Positions 1,331 through 41,900 of a stretch of DNA of 41,900 nt are shown here, piece by piece. Position 1 is the first letter of the stretch, and each line of letters opens with the position of its first letter. The stretch comes from a virus (taxonomy: Duplodnaviria > Heunggongvirae > Uroviricota > Caudoviricetes). The DNA lies in IMG/VR virus record IMGVR_UViG_3300028960_000080, positions 1-41,900 of that record. The stretch is one strand, 5' to 3'. Position numbers and translations under genes: made by a program. The notes below the pieces were generated by a model. The model was not told the origin of the DNA, made no database searches, and saw nothing but the letters and a program-made list of their open reading frames with translations.

Positions 1331-1345
1331 GCTTTTTTATACTAA
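1331..1345. other. attL: attL core (GCTTTTTTATACTAA), followed by lambda-like P' arm up to int
   Basis: Exact match to the lambda att core; identical copy at 41319..41333; downstream sequence (TCAGTCAAAATAAAATCATTATTTG...) matches what I recall of the lambda attP arm. Confidence 0.9.
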
Positions 1346-1418: not shown

Positions 1419-2489
1419 TTATTTGATTTCAATTTTGTCCCACTCCCTGCCTCTGTCATCACGATACTGTGATGCCATGGTGTCCGACTTATGCCCGAGA
1501 AGATGTTGAGCAAACTTATCGCTTATCTGCTTCTCATAGAGTCTTGCAGACAAACTGCGCAACTCGTGAAAGGTAGGCGGATCCCCTTCGAAGGAAAGAC
1601 CTGATGCTTTTCGTGCGCGCATAAAATACCTTGATACTGTGCCGGATGAAAGCGGTTCGCGACGAGTAGATGCAATTATGGTTTCTCCGCCAAGAATCTC
1701 TTTGCATTTATCAAGTGTTTCCTTCATTGATATTCCGAGAGCATCAACATGCAATGCTGTTGGGATGGCAATTTTTACGCCTGTTTTGCTTTGCTCGACA
1801 TAAAGATATCCATCTACGATATCAGACCACTTCATTTCGCATAAATCACCAACTCGCTGCCCGGTAACAACAGCCAGTTCCATTGCAAGTCTAAGCCAAC
1901 ATGGTGATGATTCTGCTGCTTGATAAATTTTCAGGTATTCGTCAGCCGTAAGTCTTGATCTCCTTACCTCTGATTTTGCTGCGCGAGTGGCAGCGACCGG
2001 GTTTGTTGTTATATGGCCTTCAGCTATTGCCTCTCGGAATGCATCGCTCAGTGTTGATCTGATTAACTTGGCTGACGCCGCCTTGCCCTCGTCTATGTAT
2101 CCATTGAGCATTGCTGCAATTTCTTTTGTGGTGATGTCTTCAAGTGGAACATCAGGTAGCCCCCTCCTTATTGCTTTAATTTTGCTCATGTAATTTATAA
2201 GTGTCTTCTGCTTGATTCCTCTGCTGGCGAGGATTTTTTCGTAGCGATCAAGCCATGAATGTAACGTAACAGAATTATCACTGTTGATTCTCGCTGTCAG
2301 AGGCTTGTGTTTGTGTCCTGAAAATAACTCAATGTTTGCCTGTATTGCTTCAGTAATTGCTATCCTCCTGTCTCTGCCTAATCCGAACTCTTTACCCGTC
2401 CTTGGGTCCCTGTAGCAGTAATATCCATTGTTTCTTATATAAAGGTTAGGGGGTAAATCCCGGCGCTCATGACTTCGCCTTCTTCCCAT
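1419..2489 (-). CDS. int: Tyrosine integrase, lambda Int (356 aa)
   Basis: Translation recognisable as lambda Int along its whole length (same 356-aa size; starts MGRRRSHERRDLPPNLYIRNNGYYCYRDPRTGKEF); adjacent to att core. Confidence 0.97.
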   Translation of the reverse strand: MGRRRSHERRDLPPNLYIRNNGYYCYRDPRTGKEFGLGRDRRIAITEAIQANIELFSGHKHKPLTARINSDNSVTLHSWLDRYEKILASRGIKQKTLINYMSKIKAIRRGLPDVPLEDITTKEIAAMLNGYIDEGKAASAKLIRSTLSDAFREAIAEGHITTNPVAATRAAKSEVRRSRLTADEYLKIYQAAESSPCWLRLAMELAVVTGQRVGDLCEMKWSDIVDGYLYVEQSKTGVKIAIPTALHVDALGISMKETLDKCKEILGGETIIASTRREPLSSGTVSRYFMRARKASGLSFEGDPPTFHELRSLSARLYEKQISDKFAQHLLGHKSDTMASQYRDDRGREWDKIEIK

Positions 2490-13545: not shown

Positions 13546-14586
13546 TTAAAGTGATGCGATGATAGCCCTTCCAAGAGCTTCAGCCATCTTGGGAGGGACT
13601 GCATTCCCTATCTGTTTGGCTTTCGAGACTAAAGAGCCTGTGAAGGAATAGTCTAATGGGAAAGTCTGTAATAACGCAGCCTCTCTAACAGAAATAGCCC
13701 TATCTTGCTCTGGATGTCCGAAACGTCCATTCGAATAGCTTATACATCTAGTTGTTAATCCACTTGCTGGTTTGTCCCAAGAAAGCCGTCCATAAACATC
13801 AGTATGCCCTTTATATTTTTTATGGCATTTTAGTATAAGTTCTTCAGGCCAAGATTCTCTACCTTTTCCCTCAGGAGTCGCTTTAATACGTTTAATATTT
13901 AGATCAGATAGTTTGGCTGCTGTATGATCCATAACATCTTTATGAGTTTCACCGGCAGCAATAGGAGGTAATCCGCCGATCCAGTCTCTGACAGTTGCAT
14001 ACGGAGTTTTTAACCCATCATGAGTTTGTGATGGAAGCTTAATATTCGTGTGTTTTGACGCCAGTAAAACAAAACGTTCACGTGTTTGAGGAACCCCGAA
14101 CCACAACGCAGGAATCACACCAAAATCAACGTTGTAGTGATGATGTGCTAAAACCTCAAGAAATTTCTGGAAATTTCCATTGTTAATATCGACATTTTGG
14201 ATTCCTGGTACATTCTCTACCAGTACAAAGTCTGGCGTATAATAAGAGACAAACCGTGCAAACTCAGTAAGCAGATCTTTTCTCGGATCATCCTCGTTCC
14301 GTATTTTATTTTGTTTCGAGAATGGTTGACATGGAGCACAACCACAAAATAGGGTTAGAGCTTTGCTTTGTGTTGACGCACAAACCAGATGCTTAATTTC
14401 CTCAACGTGTGTATCTTTGATATCACCATTGATAAAATGTGCAAATGGATTATTCATTTTAAAGGTGTTAGCGGAATCTAGATCAATATCTAAACCGAAA
14501 ATAATTTCCATTCCCACCGCTTTTAGGCCTACACTGGTTCCGCCGCAGCCGGAAAAGAAATCGTAAACGTGTATCTTTTTAGCCAT
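13546..14586 (-). CDS. DNA cytosine-C5 methyltransferase (Dcm-like)
   Basis: Canonical C5-MTase motifs in order: I (DFFSGCGG), IV (GCAPCQPFS, catalytic Cys), VI (LVENV), VIII (QTRERFVLL); AT-rich by eye. Confidence 0.92.
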   Translation of the reverse strand: MAKKIHVYDFFSGCGGTSVGLKAVGMEIIFGLDIDLDSANTFKMNNPFAHFINGDIKDTHVEEIKHLVCASTQSKALTLFCGCAPCQPFSKQNKIRNEDDPRKDLLTEFARFVSYYTPDFVLVENVPGIQNVDINNGNFQKFLEVLAHHHYNVDFGVIPALWFGVPQTRERFVLLASKHTNIKLPSQTHDGLKTPYATVRDWIGGLPPIAAGETHKDVMDHTAAKLSDLNIKRIKATPEGKGRESWPEELILKCHKKYKGHTDVYGRLSWDKPASGLTTRCISYSNGRFGHPEQDRAISVREAALLQTFPLDYSFTGSLVSKAKQIGNAVPPKMAEALGRAIIASL

Positions 14587-14589
14587 TAT

Positions 14590-16380
14590 CTACCTCACTC
14601 TTGGTCTGATAGTATCATTATCTAAAAAGATTTGCAGCAACTCTCGAGTTTTTGTTAACACTTCATGATTATTTGGTATTTTATTAAGAATTCTGATTTG
14701 TGTTTCAAAGATATCGTCACTGGTAACGTTCTCCAACCCTGTGTCTAACTTACAAAGTTCTTTGGTGATTTCTTTAGCATCTTGAATGTTTTTGGGGATT
14801 TGATCTTTATATTCTTTATAATCACCATGAACATTCTCAATAAGAAATGCTTCAGGAGTATAAACAGGAAGAAAAGCAATTTTATCGTGGATGAAATCGA
14901 TAAAATTTCTTTGCATTGTGTATTTTTGATTGTTATTTGATGAGCCATTAGAACCATCACAACTAAATTTTATATCCTGATTGGTTATTTCTTTTATGAT
15001 GTTTTGAAGGTTTGTGTTTTGATTTTCTGGTATGGAATCAGAAGTTGGATAATCATCAGTTCTCGATTGGTCACCATCTAATAAGAAAATAACGTTTTTA
15101 ACATTGGCAACACATAAAGGCACAGCCAAAGTTTGAAGAATACTTCCCGCTCCTCCAGGAACATGTTTTACTTCGAAGGAGTTTAATAATGCTTCACCAC
15201 CCGCTTTAAGCGCCTTTTCTACAAACCTCTTCGCTAACCGATCTTCTACAATAACGGTTCTTTTATCAATGCGTTCACCAAGAATAAAGAAAGATTCTTC
15301 TGGACTGACATTTTGAAGAACATCAACCTTTCCTATTTTATCATTCAGACAGAATAATTTTATGGCATTTTTAGGCAAGTCTTTTACTATTGTTGATGAA
15401 TGTGTGGATATGACAATTTGATGTTTCTTTTTAAGTGCTTGTTCTGATAAAAATTCCATCAATTGACATTGAGCAGAAGGGTGAAGTGATACTTCAGGTT
15501 CATCTAGCAGAATTAAAGATGCATCAGGGCTATCCATTAGTTTATGCACTAATATAGATACAGCAAATTCCCCACTGCCTGCGAAAGCTTCAGAATATTT
15601 TAAGTTTTCTGATTGAAGAATAATTGTGGGAGCTTTGTCATTAGTGAATAAGCTATGTTCAATAAGGCGGATGCTTGTGTATTTGCGACCTAAAATCTTG
15701 CTGATTGCCTCTACCTTACTTTTTTCTAATAAAGTGTTAACAAATAGCTTGTCTTTTTTTCCTTTATGAGGTTGATATTTTTTAAGATCGTTATCTATAA
15801 TGTCTTTTAGCATCTGACTGCGTTTTCTAAGATAATCTTTCTTAGGGTATGTATGAAAATCAGAGTGATAAAAGAACTTATCAAATGCACTGATAGTTGC
15901 TCTGAAATCTAAATATATTACATTTTTGTCAATAGCTTTCCACCTGGTCCTTAGTTGATTGGTTGAGATTTTTGTACTAGGCATTGGAGCCATGTTGTCG
16001 GATTTTAATGGTCTGGATGGTTCCCAGTAATCAGGATCATTTTCTTTAGAGATTCGAGTTTTAATTACTTCAACAATTGAATCAGTAGCTTTGTCATAAT
16101 ATCCATAAATAAATCTAGAACGACCACCATCTTTAATCTCATCTACATCTGTAGAAAACCATAAGCTACCCAGAGAATAGTTGTTTGGAGAACCGAATAG
16201 GGCTCTTAAAACAGAACTTTTATTGGTTCCGTTTTGACCAACTAATGCTGTAATTGGATACTCAAAATCAATCTTGCTACCCTCTGCAAGGTTTTTAAAA
16301 AAAGGAAAACGAATATGTCTAATAAATGGCTCAATTTTAGACGATGCCATAATTTTCTTTAGTTTTAATTCTGTGCTCAT
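14590..16380 (-). CDS. ABC-type ATPase fused to a TOPRIM-like nuclease domain (OLD-family-like / fused PARIS-like), 596 aa
   Basis: Walker A (GQNGTNKSS), Walker B (LILLDEPEVSLHP), H-loop (ISTHS) in the N-terminal half; C-terminal TVIVED and FLLDGDQ fit the TOPRIM Glu and DxD motifs; 3-nt gap to the methyltransferase gene; start could instead be the ATG at 16350. Confidence 0.8.
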   Translation of the reverse strand: MSTELKLKKIMASSKIEPFIRHIRFPFFKNLAEGSKIDFEYPITALVGQNGTNKSSVLRALFGSPNNYSLGSLWFSTDVDEIKDGGRSRFIYGYYDKATDSIVEVIKTRISKENDPDYWEPSRPLKSDNMAPMPSTKISTNQLRTRWKAIDKNVIYLDFRATISAFDKFFYHSDFHTYPKKDYLRKRSQMLKDIIDNDLKKYQPHKGKKDKLFVNTLLEKSKVEAISKILGRKYTSIRLIEHSLFTNDKAPTIILQSENLKYSEAFAGSGEFAVSILVHKLMDSPDASLILLDEPEVSLHPSAQCQLMEFLSEQALKKKHQIVISTHSSTIVKDLPKNAIKLFCLNDKIGKVDVLQNVSPEESFFILGERIDKRTVIVEDRLAKRFVEKALKAGGEALLNSFEVKHVPGGAGSILQTLAVPLCVANVKNVIFLLDGDQSRTDDYPTSDSIPENQNTNLQNIIKEITNQDIKFSCDGSNGSSNNNQKYTMQRNFIDFIHDKIAFLPVYTPEAFLIENVHGDYKEYKDQIPKNIQDAKEITKELCKLDTGLENVTSDDIFETQIRILNKIPNNHEVLTKTRELLQIFLDNDTIRPRVR

Positions 16381-37523: not shown

Positions 37524-37928
37524 ATGAATGATGTTTATGCAGTTGTTGATAATAACGTTGTTATTAATGTCATTATCTGGGACGGAATTTCTGAATGGAA
37601 ACCAGAGGCTGGTAATTTAGTTCCGTTAAACGGCGATGCTGGCATCGGTTGGTCATATTCAGACGGAGTATTTACCGCGCCACCTCCCCCAGAACGCTCT
37701 CACAACGCGTTAGTTGCGGAGGCTGAGCTGCAGAAATCAGCACTACTGACCGTAGCAAATAACGCAATAGCACCGCTGCAGGATGCCGTTGATTTGGAAA
37801 TGGCGACAGACGATGAACAGACGTTACTGCTGGCGTGGAAAAAATACAGGGTACTGCTGAACCGTGTTGATACCTCAGCGGCACCCGAAATAGAGTGGCC
37901 TACGCAACCGGGGGAGCGGGCCAGTTGA
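37524..37928 (+). CDS. Tail fibre assembly protein (Tfa)
   Basis: N-terminus MNDVYA... and C-terminus ...[22 protein letters not shown] characteristic of Tfa chaperones. Confidence 0.8.
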
Positions 37929-38035
37929 TATCAGGCGCAGGGGCAGCATCAACTGCTGTCACTGCGTCGATGTAGTCGAGTACCGCATTCATCCGCCTTT
38001 TTTCATCATCAGTCAGTTTGCGTCCTACACCTCTC
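37898..38035 (-). pseudogene. Inverted remnant of an alternative tail-fibre-assembly gene C-terminus (relic of an invertible host-range segment)
   Basis: Minus-strand reading gives ...[32 protein letters not shown], paralleling the Tfa C-terminal motif (V.D..AP.I.WP..P); only about 45 codons and no invertase gene. Confidence 0.35.
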
Positions 38036-38226
38036 CGTTAACATCTTTGTTATATGGTACAACTGCGCAGAGGCCTGTCTCTCCAATTGTGCCAGTTGAA
38101 TACTACGATACAACGCTAGGTCTTCCTATTTGGTGGAACATAACCACATCCACATGGAAAAGAGCTGATGGTGCAGATGTATAATTCTGGTGCCGCGCAT
38201 GCGGCACCAATAAAAAACATATTAAA

Positions 38227-39702
38227 CTAAAGTGAATCTATTCCATTTTTCCAAATAAGAACTTTTTTGTCTTGTATTTTATGAGTGCTATCAGGCTGCC
38301 CAAACTGTTTTATGGCCTTTTCCTCTTGCTCTACATCATCAGCAATTAAAAAATTAGCTCCTTTTTGGTACCATTCTTTTTTTGATAACCAATTATATGG
38401 TGTGAATCTATCACCATACGACTCAAATGGAGCTACGTTGATATCACTAAATCCAGCAACAGATGATGCAAACCAAAATGATGCATAACCTCTTTGTAGT
38501 TTATTTTTTATTAAGAAATCTCTTAATTCTATTGTAATATCATTTTTATTAACAATGTTTTTTGTTGTTGCCATCGTTGGCAACGATAACGCAATAACGA
38601 TTAATGATATTAGTAAATTTGTCTTCACTGGTAAGGAGAAAGAATTTCTAGCAATCACAATTGACATGAAAATAAACGTTGGGACTATGTATCTAATTGA
38701 GAAAAGATTTGTTGGCCTGTCACTTGAAATATAGGCAATCAACATGACTAATGATGATACAATAAGAACCTGGTCAATAAAATCAATTTCTTTAAATTTA
38801 AGAATATTTTTATAAGATAAAAATAAGAATACGAAAATGAAAAACACCTTTATCATGGTGAATAATGAGTTAAAGCTACCTATCTCCATTCCAAACGCGT
38901 ACCCACCAAAAAATTTGAATACGCCCATGATAACAAGAGATATGTTGCTTGTTATTTGTTGAAACTCTACTATGTGAGGTTTGGTTATGCCTGGCAGGTT
39001 AAATCCACCAAGCTTAATGAATATAAATGATATGAGCTCAGCAATAAATATAGATGATATAGTGAAAACCAACAATAACAAATCATTAGTATTCAACGAA
39101 TCTCTTTTCATTAGAGAAGCATACATTCTATATATGCAAACAAAAACTATAGGTATTATAAAGGCATATTTAGATATATCATCACTAAAAACAAGCAACG
39201 ATAACATAAATACATATGGAAAAAGTAATTTTAAATCATTTTTCTTTCTGTATCTATCTATTATTAGTATGATCGCCAGCATGTAAATGTACGCACCAAT
39301 ATGTATACATGCTATAAGCATTATACTTGATGAGAAAACCGTTGGAATTCCAAATACAGAAAGAACAGGCCATAACGATGCCCTACTTTTAGTATGAGAG
39401 ATATATAGCGATAGTGTTACTAATATAGACATGAAAACTCCAGGCACAATATAGTACAGATTTTCATTAAATCCTATTATTTTTATCGCTATAGCATATG
39501 GTATTATTTCTGTGAAATAGAATGATACAGTTGATAAATCCCACCCACTGAGAAAAATATTTCCTTCAGTAATATCCCTTGCCTCTCTGAATGAAGACAT
39601 GACATCTGAGTTTGGAATTATGTTTTTAGCAATCATTGAGTAAATTATTGATAATACAATAAATGTTGCCAGCCAATATAAAAGCTCAAGCTTCTTGCTC
39701 AT
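38227..39702 (-). CDS. Serotype-specific O-antigen glucosyltransferase (GtrC-type polytopic membrane protein)
   Basis: 491-aa multi-pass membrane protein immediately downstream of gtrB; very AT-rich. Confidence 0.8.
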
Positions 39703-40616
39703 TTTTTACCCTTAAGTACATACTTTGGACGCTGCTTAACTTCAATGTAAATTCTACCAATATACTCACCGAGCACTCCAATCCCAATTAACTGGATGCC
39801 GCCAAGAAATAATATTGATACAAGAATTGAAGGGTATCCAGGTACATTATTACCAAAAATTAATTTATCAATTATCATCCATGAACCGTATGTAAATGAT
39901 ATACATGCAATAAATAACCCAATATAGGTCCACATGCGAAGCGGGAATGTTGAGAAGCTAGTGATCCCTTCCAGCGCCAAGTTCCATAGCTTCCATCCAT
40001 TGAACTTTGTGCTTCCTGCAACGCGTTCTGCTCGCGCATATTCTACGACATCGGTTCGACCACCAACCCAGCTCAGCACACCCTTCATAAACAGGTTTCG
40101 TTCTGGCATGAGCTTAATGTTTTCTACTACTTCGCGAGACATGAGCCGGAAGTCGCCAACATTCTCTTCTATCTGAGGGTTGCTGATTTTGTTATGAAGT
40201 TTATAGAACCACTCAGCAGATTTACGCTTCAGCCTGCTGTCAGTGGAGCGGTCAGAGCGTTTAGCCAGAACCATATCTGCACCGGCCTGCCATTTCTCTA
40301 TCAAGTGAGGAATAACTTCGATAGGGTCTTGCAGATCAACGTCAATCGGGATAATTGCCTCCCCGGTAGCATGGTCCAGACCTGCGAACAGGGCGGGTTC
40401 TTTGCCGAAGTTACGTGTGAACGACAGCGAAACCACAAGCGGGTCGGCAACAGCAAGCTCGTTGATAATTGATTCTGTAGCGTCTTTGCTGCCATCGTTT
40501 ATGAAGACTATCTCGACTTCATGCTGCTGAAGCCCTTCAAATTCGCGCACGGTTTTATAAAAAATAGGTATCGTGGCCTCTTCGTTAAAGACCGGAACGA
40601 CTAAAGAAATTTTCAT
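39699..40616 (-). CDS. gtrB: Bactoprenol glucosyltransferase GtrB
   Basis: GT2-family glycosyltransferase signatures ([22 protein letters not shown]) and two C-terminal transmembrane helices. Confidence 0.92.
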
Positions 40617-40975
40617 TTCGCATCCCTAAAGACAATGTATTTTGAATAAATGAACCCGCATATCAGGCTGATGGCGGAGAAGGTGACAAGAGTTATCATC
40701 GGGGGAAGTGCGCATCTATCAGCAGCCCATCCAACAGTAGCACTGAGTGTTCCCATGAACCCGACATATAACATGTAGCGCATCGTTGTAGTTGATGATT
40801 TGAATGTGAATTTTGCATTCGCGAAGAAGCTAAAACTCACAGCCACAACGAAACCTGCGAAGTTTGCCAGAGCCTGATTGGTATGCGCGGCATAGATACA
40901 TACACTAAAAACCACCCAGTGTATAAGTGTGTTCAGCACACCAATCGAGGTGTACCTTGCAAATATATTTAACAT
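40613..40975 (-). CDS. gtrA: GtrA flippase-like small membrane protein
   Basis: 120-aa four-helix membrane protein upstream of gtrB; the three genes overlap by 4 nt each. Confidence 0.85.
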
Positions 40976-41318
40976 TTATTTAATCAATGAGTTCTGAAAG
41001 GTATGAAGTCTATCATCCAAGTCTCAATCGATCGATACTTGCGGTAGTTGATGAGGAAAACTCTGGTACACAAAGCTTTGCACTGGACTGCAAGGTGTTG
41101 TGCTTCTCTGGAGTGCGATATGTTTGATGACAAAAAATTAGCGCAAGAGGACAAAAAATCACCTTGCGCTAATGCTCTGTTACAGGTCACTAATACTATC
41201 TAAGTAGTTGATTCATAGTGACTGGATATGTTGTGTTTTGCAGTATTATACAGTCTATTTTTTAAGCCAAATGTATTGTAATGGATTGATATTAATGATT
41301 TTTGCTGTTTCTGGTTCA

Positions 41319-41333
41319 GCTTTTTTATACTAA
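41319..41333. other. attR: attR core (GCTTTTTTATACTAA) preceded by a diverged lambda-like P arm
   Basis: Exact direct repeat of the attL core; followed by CTTGAGCGAAACGGGAAGG, which matches what I recall of the bio-side attB flank. Confidence 0.9.
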
Positions 41334-41423: not shown

Positions 41424-41900
41424 TTAACTAAACATCGCAGTAATCGAGGCGCTTGCCAGAGAATGGAAATGGACGTTAAACCCGACCATCGCGCCGCTGG
41501 CACCTTCATCGACATCAATACGTTCTACATCCAGCGCGTGAACGGTAAAAATGTAGCGATGGGTTTCGCCTTTCGGCGGCGCTGCACCATCGTACCCGGT
41601 TTTACCAAAGTCGGTACGCGTCTGCAAAACGCCGTCTGGCATTGCTACCAGACCAGAGCCAAACCCTTGCGGTAATACGCGGGTATCAGCGGGTAAATTA
41701 ACAACTACCCAGTGCCACCAGCCGGAGCCGGTTGGCGCATCCGGGTCGTAGCAGGTGACAACAAAACTTTTCGTTCCCGCAGGAACATCATCCCACGCCA
41801 GATGCGGTGAAACATTATCGCCATCGTAACCCATGCCGTTAAAGACATGACGATGTGGCAACTTATCGCCATCGCGCAGATCATTACTGATGAGTTTCAT
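41424..41900 (-). CDS. ybhB: Host PEBP-family protein YbhB (complete, 158 aa)
   Basis: Full ORF; recognised as the gene flanking attB-lambda on the bio side; start codon at the window edge. Confidence 0.85.
   Translation of the reverse strand: MKLISNDLRDGDKLPHRHVFNGMGYDGDNVSPHLAWDDVPAGTKSFVVTCYDPDAPTGSGWWHWVVVNLPADTRVLPQGFGSGLVAMPDGVLQTRTDFGKTGYDGAAPPKGETHRYIFTVHALDVERIDVDEGASGAMVGFNVHFHSLASASITAMFS

What the first reader, a model, noticed from the sequence alone, without database searches (positions are those of the whole stretch)
38227..40975. gtrABC O-antigen glucosylation (serotype-conversion) operon at the right prophage end
Three overlapping, very AT-rich minus-strand genes encode a GtrA-like flippase, a GT2 bactoprenol glucosyltransferase (GtrB) and a large polytopic membrane protein in the GtrC position. 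They sit between the tail-fibre genes and attR, which is the position gtr occupies next to attP in circular SfV/SfII-type genomes. The variable GtrC determines which O-antigen sugar is glucosylated, so this lysogen probably has a modified O-antigen and altered phage-receptor properties. The gtr promoter region (40976..41318) overlaps the attR P arm.
Basis: partly seen in the sequence, partly recalled or inferred. Interest (0 to 1): 0.4.

Follow-up and report, generated by a model that had tools for sequence, protein, structure and literature searches.

The report
Known O44-type prophage O-antigen glucosylation operon
This is an intact three-gene phage cassette that adds a glucose side-branch to the E. 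coli O-antigen; it is almost identical to the cassette already described in the O44 strain 042, so it is real but not new.

Summary
Three minus-strand genes with 4-nt overlaps encode GtrA (40613-40975), GtrB (39699-40616) and a 491-aa polytopic membrane protein (38227-39702). They lie between the tail-fibre assembly gene and the right copy of the 15-bp lambda att core (41319-41333). The left copy is at 1331-1345, next to lambda-type int and xis. The flanks are ybhC and ybhB-bioA, so this is a 40-kb prophage at attB-lambda.

- Only gtrC is very AT-rich.
- The conserved gtr promoter lies in the roughly 90 bp next to gtrA, downstream of a lambda tI/sib-like terminator, not in the P arm.
- The Dam/OxyR phase-variation module is absent (one GATC of four).

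Verdict: already known, low interest.

The parts
40613..40975 (-). gtrA, 120 aa: small membrane protein, the putative Und-P-glucose flippase
   Evidence: PF04138, E 5e-14. 100% identical to FDAARGOS_1288, 95.8% to E. coli 042, 82.5% to SfV GtrA.
39699..40616 (-). gtrB, 305 aa: GT2 bactoprenol (Und-P) glucosyltransferase with a DVD motif at residues 92-94 and two C-terminal hydrophobic helices
   Evidence: PF00535, E 3e-30. Best NCBIfam matches are the polyprenyl-phosphate glycosyltransferases PgfS and ArnC, both below their cut-offs. 100% identical to 042 GtrB, 86.6% to SfV, 89% to P22-like SPN9CC. Motif.
38227..39702 (-). gtrC of the O44/'WbbG' type, 491 aa: GT-C-fold polytopic membrane glycosyltransferase with a C-terminal alpha/beta domain of about 100 residues. 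GC is 0.31.
41007..41035 (-). Predicted gtr promoter: -35 TCGATC (41030-41035, containing the only upstream GATC), TG at 41014-41015, -10 TAGACT (41007-41012)
   Evidence: These blocks are conserved in register, at the same distance from the ATG, in SfII, SfV, HF4s, P22-like SPN9CC and S. Carrau. PMC3688519 describes the gtr -35 as encompassing GATC-4. Inferred, not mapped.
40976..41063 (-). SfV/SfII-type gtrA-proximal leader and promoter segment
   Evidence: Megablast homology to SfII, SfV, SfI and SfIV ends at window 41062. In SfII an annotated terminator sits immediately upstream of this point.
41131..41173 (-). Lambda tI/sib-like hairpin followed by a U run: an intrinsic terminator between the att core and gtrA
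   Evidence: Aligns with lambda at about 27.5 kb. In the RNA fold of window 41060-41185 this hairpin is a long, near-perfect stem followed by UUUUUUG. That 126-nt stretch folds at -37.4 kcal/mol, z -3.4.
41065..41318 (.). Lambda-like P arm (with the P1 and P2 arm-type Int sites) plus the sib region of attR
   Evidence: 91% identity to a lambda-derived record. Base-by-base alignment to lambda 27.47-27.74 kb covers the annotated int 1 and int 2 sites.
41319..41333 (+). attR core (O), 15 bp, identical to the lambda core
   Evidence: followed by the attB B' sequence CTTGAGCG.
1331..1345 (+). attL core, the other copy of the 15-bp direct repeat that bounds the 40.0-kb prophage
1419..2489 (-). Lambda-type integrase with an arm-DNA-binding domain. 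It is on the same strand as gtrABC, so it lies directly upstream of gtrA across attP in the circular phage.
   Evidence: PF00589 E 3e-40 and PF09003 E 7e-33. The adjacent xis (2467-2775) matches PF07825.
38187..38210 (-). GC-rich 10-bp hairpin beginning 17 nt after the gtrC stop codon: a possible 3' end or stabiliser, with no U tract on either strand
   Evidence: The 56-nt stretch 38175-38230 folds at -20.6 kcal/mol, z -4.5.
37524..37928 (+). Tail fibre assembly gene: the last morphogenesis gene, marking the left boundary of the cassette
   Evidence: PF02413, E 1e-32.
41424..41900 (-). Host ybhB (PEBP family), the chromosomal flank on the bio side
   Evidence: PF01161 E 2e-42; annotated ybhB-bioA-bioB in 042 and FDAARGOS_1288.

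Best explanation
This is a functional gtrABC lysogenic-conversion cassette. It is carried at the attR end of a 40-kb hybrid prophage (lambda-like int/att, SfV/Mu-like contractile tail) integrated at attB-lambda between ybhC and ybhB.

Proposed mechanism:
- GtrB transfers glucose from UDP-glucose to undecaprenyl phosphate at the cytoplasmic face of the inner membrane.
- GtrA moves Und-P-glucose to the periplasmic face.
- The GT-C-fold GtrC transfers the glucose to one defined sugar of the O-unit. For this allele that is a mannose of the ->6)Man-(a1->2)Man-(a1->2)Man-(b1->3)GlcNAc(a1-> backbone shared by O17/O44/O73/O77/O106, which converts O77-type O-antigen to O44.
- Expression comes from a short conserved promoter about 25-60 bp upstream of gtrA. 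This promoter is insulated from upstream transcription by the lambda tI/sib-like terminator. It lacks the Dam/OxyR switch, so expression is probably constitutive rather than phase-variable.

Basis of each step:
- Shown here: gene identities, intactness, GT-C fold, conserved synteny, att structure, near-identity to the 042 locus, and association with the O77-group gene cluster.
- Taken from the literature: the assignment to the O44 side-branch.
- Inferred: promoter position, constitutive expression, and the catalytic role of the invariant Asp33 and Asp174.
For: - Genes: Pfam and identity data for GtrA and GtrB.
- Conserved residues: the family alignment shows invariant S32-D33 just after TM1, and F172-S173-D174.
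- Synteny: homologues of GtrC (30-62% identical) in E. coli, Salmonella Carrau, Citrobacter freundii and an unassigned phage contig all lie immediately after a PF04138 gene and a PF00535 gene.
- Match to 042: GtrC differs by only L223I and I325V, GtrB is identical, and the locus is 98.8% identical in DNA and at the same chromosomal site.
- Literature: PMC2808357 lists prophage ROD15/042p1 with a 15-bp direct repeat and cargo gtrAB plus Ec042-0853. PMC7685785 and PMC10304059, both citing Wang et al. 2007, attribute the O44 glucose branch to gtrA, gtrB and wbbG in a prophage between ybhB and ybhC.
- O-type association: at least 9 of the 12 complete-genome records with this allele carry the O17/O44/O73/O77/O106 wzx-wzy genes, against 94 of 5426 genomes overall. 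Fisher p = 2e-14.
- Promoter: conserved blocks.
Against: - No experiment on this strain, and the window does not include the O-antigen gene cluster, so the acceptor backbone is only inferred. The nearest genome, FDAARGOS_1288, does have the O77-group cluster.
- Wang et al. 2007 could not be read directly. How far wbbG was tested genetically is known to me only through secondary citations.
- Three of the 12 records with this allele were not seen in the listed part of the O77-group hits (12 of the 94 hits were never displayed).
- GtrC has no sequence similarity to any characterised GtrC.
- The simple promoter scan did not flag the proposed promoter, whose -35 matches the consensus at only 3 of 6 positions.
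Confidence: 0.9

Rival explanations
1. The cassette is intact but has no phenotypic effect in this host. Either the host O-antigen is not the O77-group backbone, so GtrC lacks its acceptor, or the operon is not expressed, as with the cryptic CPS-53 yfdGHI remnant of K-12.
For: The window contains no O-antigen genes. PGAP names the genes yfdG and yfdH after the K-12 cryptic prophage. The promoter is weak by consensus. Three of the 12 carriers were not confirmed as O77-group.
Against: At least 9 of 12 carriers are O77-group, including the 99.9%-identical FDAARGOS_1288. All three ORFs are intact, and the GtrC changes relative to 042 are conservative. The promoter blocks are conserved across functional gtr operons of SfII, SfV and P22-type phages.
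Confidence: 0.06
2. The third protein is a GT-C enzyme that glucosylates a different acceptor (enterobacterial common antigen, LPS core, lipid A or a periplasmic protein) rather than the O-antigen.
For: The closest structural neighbours are ArnT (lipid A) and PglB/STT3 (protein). There is no sequence relationship to proven O-antigen GtrCs.
Against: Fixed position after gtrA-gtrB in several prophages. Strong restriction of this allele to one O-antigen backbone, with mutual exclusion against a second allele at the same slot. The literature assigns it to the O44 Glc-Man linkage (PMC10304059). A Salmonella homologue occurs in serovar Carrau, which is O:6,14,24 by my own knowledge of the Kauffmann-White scheme. 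I recall from the Wang et al. 2007 title that Salmonella O:6,14 shares this backbone, but I did not read the paper.
Confidence: 0.03
3. Expression is phase-variable through Dam methylation and OxyR, as in most Salmonella gtr operons, so that clonal populations mix glucosylated and non-glucosylated cells.
For: One GATC is retained at the position of GATC-4 in the -35 region. The related S. Carrau operon has the full four-GATC signature.
Against: Only one of the four GATC sites is present, and the sequence upstream of it is lambda sib/tI rather than the OxyR-binding region. PMC3688519 reports that operons lacking the signature do not phase-vary.
Confidence: 0.03

Closest known systems
E. coli 042 (O44:H18) prophage 042p1/ROD15: gtrA-gtrB-Ec042-0853 ('wbbG', Wang et al. 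2007)
   Same: Same chromosomal site (attB-lambda, next to ybhB-bioA), same 15-bp repeat and same gene order. DNA is 98.8% identical over 3.4 kb. GtrB is identical and GtrC 99.6% identical (PMC2808357).
   Different: Five substitutions in GtrA and two conservative ones in GtrC. 19 differences in the 358-bp stretch from gtrA to the end of the att core. Some tail-fibre and baseplate genes upstream are mosaic between carriers.
Shigella flexneri serotype-converting phages SfV, SfII, SfI and SfIV (gtrA-gtrB-gtr[type])
   Same: Three-gene operon next to attP and downstream of int on the same strand. GtrA is 82% and GtrB 87% identical. The roughly 87 bp upstream of gtrA is conserved. SfV-like myovirus morphogenesis genes.
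   Different: GtrC is unrelated in sequence (no tblastn hit; hhalign probability 0.6%). The acceptor is a mannose backbone rather than the rhamnose backbone. The integration module is lambda int with the lambda att core at ybhC/ybhB; the SfV and SfII integrases are annotated at about 387 aa and, from my own knowledge, target tRNA-Thr (thrW).
Salmonella gtr operons (P22, epsilon34 and the ten GtrC families of Davies et al. 2013)
   Same: Same operon logic. GtrB is 89% identical to P22-like SPN9CC. The core promoter blocks are conserved. A 33%-identical GtrC homologue lies in a gtr operon of S. Carrau.
   Different: The window lacks GATC-1 to GATC-3 and the OxyR region of the phase-variation signature (PMC3688519).
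GT-C fold lipid-phosphate-sugar transferases (ArnT, PglB/STT3, PMT, ALG and Aft enzymes)
   Different: 7-12% sequence identity, no profile match to any solved chain, and different donor and acceptor.
Alternative gtrC allele (PF14264 GtrII-like) in the same prophage slot of other O77-group E. coli, including the O17 reference strain K12a
   Same: Same att-lambda prophage and the same flanking tail-fibre-assembly gene and ybhB. gtrA is identical to that of 042 (same RefSeq protein WP_000931964.1) and gtrB is near-identical (WP_000703625.1 versus WP_000703624.1). Found in O77-group strains.
   Different: The third gene is unrelated. The 35 records carrying it do not overlap the 12 records carrying the window's allele.

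Membership tests
gtrABC O-antigen glucosylation (serotype-conversion) operon | GtrA: small (about 120 aa) multi-pass membrane protein of the GtrA/DPMS family | tested here: met
   PF04138, E 5e-14, full-length match; 82.5% identical to SfV GtrA.
gtrABC O-antigen glucosylation (serotype-conversion) operon | GtrB: GT2 polyprenyl-phosphate glucosyltransferase with a DXD motif and C-terminal membrane anchor | tested here: met
   PF00535, E 3e-30; DVD at residues 92-94 and hydrophobic C-terminal helices; 86.6% identical to SfV GtrB.
gtrABC O-antigen glucosylation (serotype-conversion) operon | Third gene immediately downstream, translationally coupled, encoding a polytopic inner-membrane glycosyltransferase that varies between operons | tested here: met
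gtrABC O-antigen glucosylation (serotype-conversion) operon | Location next to the phage attachment site, downstream of int in the circular genome | tested here: met
   att cores; int and xis on the same strand at attL; the same layout in SfII and SfV.
gtrABC O-antigen glucosylation (serotype-conversion) operon | Demonstrated addition of glucose to the O-unit, i.e. a serotype change | not testable with these tools
   Known only from the literature on the 99.6%-identical 042 protein (PMC7685785 and PMC10304059, citing Wang et al. 2007, which is not held in the library).
Dam/OxyR phase-variable gtr operons (Broadbent 2010; Davies 2013) | [quoted passage not shown] | tested here: not met
   One GATC, at -58. 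SPN9CC and S. Carrau show -135, -122, -71 and -58. The upstream part is replaced by lambda sib/tI sequence.
Sequence families of characterised GtrCs (PF14264 Glucos_trans_II, PF19528 DUF6056, GtrV) | Significant match to the family HMM or to a member | tested here: not met
   No Pfam hit at E up to 10 for 16 family members. No tblastn hit in 50,697 phage records. hhalign probability 0.6%. GtrII hits PF14264, the HF4s GtrC hits PF19528 and GtrV hits nothing.
GT-C glycosyltransferase superfamily | Multi-helix membrane fold shared with ArnT, STT3 and PMT | tested here: met
GT-C glycosyltransferase superfamily | Conserved acidic residue in the first extracytoplasmic loop acting in catalysis | tested here: inconclusive
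   D33 is invariant in 16 homologues and lies just after TM1; D174 is also invariant. No residue-level structural superposition was available, so equivalence to ArnT or PglB catalytic residues is inferred.
Lambda-type attR (P-O-B') | 15-bp core identical to lambda, a P arm with arm-type Int sites, a B' half-site, and a cognate Int with an arm-binding domain | tested here: met
   Core. Alignment to lambda 27.47-27.74 kb including the annotated int 1 and int 2 sites, then CTTGAGCG. Int matches PF09003.

The most novel reading that the evidence does not exclude
The gtrC slot of this att-lambda prophage is the genetic determinant that splits the in-silico 'O77g' group into its serogroups: the WbbG-type allele seen here gives O44, and the PF14264 allele of reference strain K12a gives O17. 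If so, allele typing would resolve serogroups that current genoserotyping cannot separate. In addition, the WbbG-type proteins represent a large GT-C family (at least 4,400 clusters at 50% identity) that has no Pfam or NCBIfam model.
Probability: 0.45. Interest if true: 0.3.

Novelty: already known. Interest (0 to 1): 0.15.

Why it matters
The cassette sets a serologically and ecologically relevant surface trait. Glucose branches on this mannose backbone distinguish O44 from O77, O17, O73 and O106. They change phage-receptor properties, and according to PMC10304059 they influence recognition by amoebae. All of this was already proposed for strain 042, so the window adds only another carrier. 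One modest practical point follows. Papers from 2026 (PMC13188871, PMC13248637) still treat O17/O44/O73/O77/O106 as indistinguishable in silico. In complete genomes, however, the gtrC alleles at this one prophage slot are mutually exclusive, and one of them is present in the O17 reference strain. They could therefore serve as typing markers.

Tried and rejected
- **Dam/OxyR phase variation.** Rejected: one GATC instead of four.
- **Similarity to characterised GtrCs.** None found by tblastn against all phage records, blastp against GtrII, GtrV and the HF4s GtrC, or hhalign.
- **Family models for GtrC and 25 relatives.** Pfam, NCBIfam and PDB sequence searches found nothing.
- **Promoter and terminator scan.** It flagged no promoter between the att core and gtrA, and it missed the tI-like terminator because of its long loop. 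Both were found by alignment and folding instead.
- **Rfam.** Only a sub-threshold IS009 hit, inside the tail-fibre assembly gene.
- **Wang et al. 2007.** Not held in the library.
- **The 40%-identical allele P0003.** Absent from the complete E. coli genome set.
- **The 298 bp between the tail-fibre assembly gene and gtrC.** No phage DNA match.
- **Acetyltransferase-type 'GtrC'.** Rejected, because the fold is GT-C.
- **Truncated or pseudogenised gtrC.** Rejected, because the length matches all homologues.
Full report

Yes. The ORF table contains three minus-strand ORFs at exactly the stated coordinates: 40613-40975 (120 aa), 39699-40616 (305 aa) and 38227-39702 (491 aa). Each ends in a single stop codon. 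Successive genes overlap by the 4-nt ATGA motif, which is typical of translational coupling.

Pfam assigns the first to GtrA_DPMS_TM (PF04138, E 5e-14) and the second to GT2 (PF00535, E 3e-30). The third matches no Pfam or NCBIfam model.

GC content is 0.44 for gtrA, 0.44 for gtrB and 0.31 for gtrC, against 0.51 for the rest of the prophage. 'Very AT-rich' is therefore true only of gtrC, the usual mark of a foreign, swappable specificity gene.

**2. Context**

The 15-bp lambda core GCTTTTTTATACTAA occurs exactly twice, at 1331-1345 and 41319-41333, where 0.01 matches are expected by chance.

- Left of the first copy lies a pectinesterase-family gene (ybhC). Right of it lie a lambda-type integrase with the arm-binding domain and an excisionase.
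- Right of the second copy lie the attB B' sequence and ybhB. In the two closest genomes ybhB is followed by bioA and bioB.
- Between the cores are a terminase, portal, HK97-type capsid, contractile sheath, Mu-type baseplate genes and a tail-fibre assembly gene.

In SfII and SfV the annotated order is xis-int-(attP)-gtrA-gtrB-gtr[type], all on one strand. Joining the ends of the present prophage gives the same order.

**3. The upstream region in detail**

Alignment with lambda shows that window 41065-41318 is homologous to lambda 27.47-27.72 kb. This is the P arm with the annotated Int arm sites, plus the sib/tI region. On the minus strand this includes a long hairpin followed by UUUUUUG at 41131-41173. 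The 126-nt stretch containing it folds at -37.4 kcal/mol (z -3.4). Any transcript entering from ybhB in the lysogen, or from int in the circular phage, meets this terminator before gtrA.

Homology to the Shigella phages begins where the lambda homology stops, at window 41062/41063. In SfII an annotated terminator sits at the equivalent point.

Within the remaining roughly 87 bp, six gtr operons align in register (the window, SfII, SfV, HF4s, P22-like SPN9CC and S. Carrau). The conserved blocks are ATCGATC, then TG-n-TA(G/C)ACT, then ACCTTT, all at a fixed distance from the ATG. I read these as:

- -35: TCGATC, 41030-41035
- extended -10: TG-a-TAGACT, 41007-41015

This agrees with the statement in PMC3688519 that the gtr -35 encompasses GATC-4. 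It is an inference; no transcript data were available.

The intergenic space contains the P arm, but the conserved promoter is a separate module next to gtrA.

**4. Phase variation**

The Salmonella signature is four GATC sites within OxyR half-sites (PMC3688519). SPN9CC and the S. Carrau operon have GATC at -135, -122, -71 and -58. The window, SfII and HF4s keep only the site at -58, and SfV has none. In the whole 40976-41318 region there is a single GATC, at 41030. The module is absent.

**5. The third gene**

A database search found 17 homologues at 26-99% identity. Most are about 476-495 aa and cover at least 93% of the query, so the window's protein is not truncated.

The alignment shows these invariant residues: S32-D33 directly after the first helix; D43; G47-N48; W54; the block L56 to T64 except S60, which is nearly invariant; H134; and F172-S173-D174.

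An AlphaFold model built on this alignment is confident (pLDDT 85.2, pTM 0.86). It has about a dozen long helices and a C-terminal alpha/beta domain of about 100 residues.

- Foldseek against the PDB returns only GT-C enzymes for its top 18 hits: PglB, STT3, ArnT, AftA, AftB and ALG9.

These enzymes use polyprenyl-phosphate-linked sugars on the extracytoplasmic side, which is exactly the chemistry expected of a GtrC.

Synteny supports the same reading. Homologues in S. Carrau, E. coli, Citrobacter freundii and an unassigned phage contig all lie immediately after a PF04138 gene and a PF00535 gene, in five different genomic contexts.

By sequence the protein is unrelated to characterised GtrCs:

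- no tblastn hit in 50,697 phage records;
- blastp E above 0.3 to GtrV;
- hhalign probability 0.6% against GtrII, GtrV and the HF4s GtrC.

Those three proteins themselves fall into different Pfam families or none, so 'GtrC' is a functional and positional class rather than one sequence family.

The family of the present protein is large. It has 4,413 cluster representatives at E <= 1e-3 and 763 at E <= 1e-30. None of the 26 members scanned matches any Pfam model, and the family profile finds no solved structure by sequence.

**6. Is it known?**

Yes. Twelve of the 5,426 complete E. coli genomes in the collection carry the whole 3.4-kb locus at 98.4-99.9% identity, and one of them is E. coli 042. 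Compared with 042:

- GtrB is identical.
- GtrA has five substitutions.
- GtrC has two, L223I and I325V, both conservative and outside the invariant columns.

The 042 genome paper lists prophage ROD15/042p1 (40.8 kb, 15-bp direct repeat) with cargo 'gtrAB and Ec042-0853', and it predicts serotype alteration (PMC2808357). The FEMS review of E. coli O antigens states that O17, O44, O73, O77 and O106 share one gene cluster and backbone and differ by Gtr-added glucose. [quoted passage not shown] PMC10304059, citing Wang et al. 2007, names the three proteins GtrB, GtrA and WbbG. It places them in a prophage between ybhB and ybhC and says WbbG forms the Glc-Man linkage. I could not read Wang et al. 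2007 itself.

**7. An independent check of the O-antigen link**

I took wzx and wzy from the 042 O-antigen cluster and searched the complete genomes. 94 of 5,426 carry them. Of the 12 records with the window's gtrC allele, at least 9 are among the O77-group records that were displayed. That set includes FDAARGOS_1288, which matches the window at 99.9%. Twelve of the 94 records were never displayed, so the true number may be higher. Fisher's exact p is 2e-14.

The same prophage slot holds an unrelated PF14264-type gtrC in 35 other records:

- Most of them are in the O77-group lists.
- None overlaps the 12 carriers of the window's allele.
- They include the O17 reference strain K12a.

This fits the model that allele exchange at one prophage slot generates the serogroups of this group.

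**8. Mechanism and verdict**

The best explanation, at confidence 0.9, is a functional gtrABC conversion cassette of the O44 type:

- GtrB charges Und-P with glucose.
- GtrA flips the product to the periplasmic face.
- The GT-C GtrC transfers glucose to a backbone mannose in the periplasm.
- Expression comes from a short conserved promoter that is not phase-variable.

The rivals are a silent cassette or one without an acceptor, a non-O-antigen acceptor, and Dam/OxyR switching. Each is at or below 0.06.

The feature is already known from strain 042, so interest is low (0.15).

Noticed in passing
window 13546-16380 (minus strand): A two-gene opposite-strand insert in the middle of the prophage. 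It encodes a C-5 cytosine DNA methyltransferase (PF00145, E 3e-59) and a 596-aa AAA_15/AAA_21 ATPase. It could be a defence or restriction-modification-like moron.
   Followed up: partly
window 41131-41173 (minus strand): A lambda tI/sib-like terminator is retained between the attR core and gtrA. In the circular phage it would separate int from gtrABC; in the lysogen it separates ybhB read-through from gtrABC.
   Followed up: yes
window 37900-38226: The junk-like spacer between the tail-fibre assembly gene and gtrC contains three things. There is a minus-strand tail-fibre-assembly pseudogene remnant, annotated in 042 and FDAARGOS_1288 at the equivalent of 37900-38025. There is a 45-aa plus-strand ORF at 38047-38184. 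There is a GC-rich hairpin at 38187-38210 with no U tract. The region has no DNA match in the phage collection.
   Followed up: partly
L017 1731-3218 (E. coli KK05-19) and 34 other complete-genome records: The same att-lambda prophage slot holds an unrelated PF14264-type gtrC in other O17/O44/O73/O77/O106-cluster strains, including the O17 reference strain K12a. This set does not overlap the carriers of the window's allele. It is a candidate O17-specific gene and a possible in-silico marker for subtyping 'O77g'.
   Followed up: partly
L005 3568-3723 (S. enterica serovar Carrau): The Salmonella operon carrying a 33%-identical GtrC homologue keeps the full four-GATC phase-variation signature, identical in spacing to P22-type phages. 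The E. coli and Shigella operons keep at most the promoter-proximal site.
   Followed up: yes
proteins P0013-P0166 (family of the window's GtrC): The family has 4,413 cluster representatives at 50% identity with E <= 1e-3, mostly full-length at 480-650 aa. Yet none of 26 members tested matches any Pfam-A model, and the window's own GtrC, the only member scanned against NCBIfam, matches none there either. It is a sizeable GT-C family without a Pfam model.
   Followed up: partly
window 37691-37879 (plus strand): A sub-threshold Rfam match to IS009 (48.8 bits against a gathering score of 117, E 3e-9) lies inside the tail-fibre assembly gene. It probably reflects the conserved coding sequence from which that Rfam family was built.
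   Followed up: no
L007-L009 5001-6464 (E. coli metagenome and genome contigs): A third allele, 40% identical to the window's GtrC, occupies the same slot in the same prophage next to ybhB. In some copies an IS200-like Y1 transposase lies beside it. It is absent from the complete E. coli genome set.
   Followed up: partly
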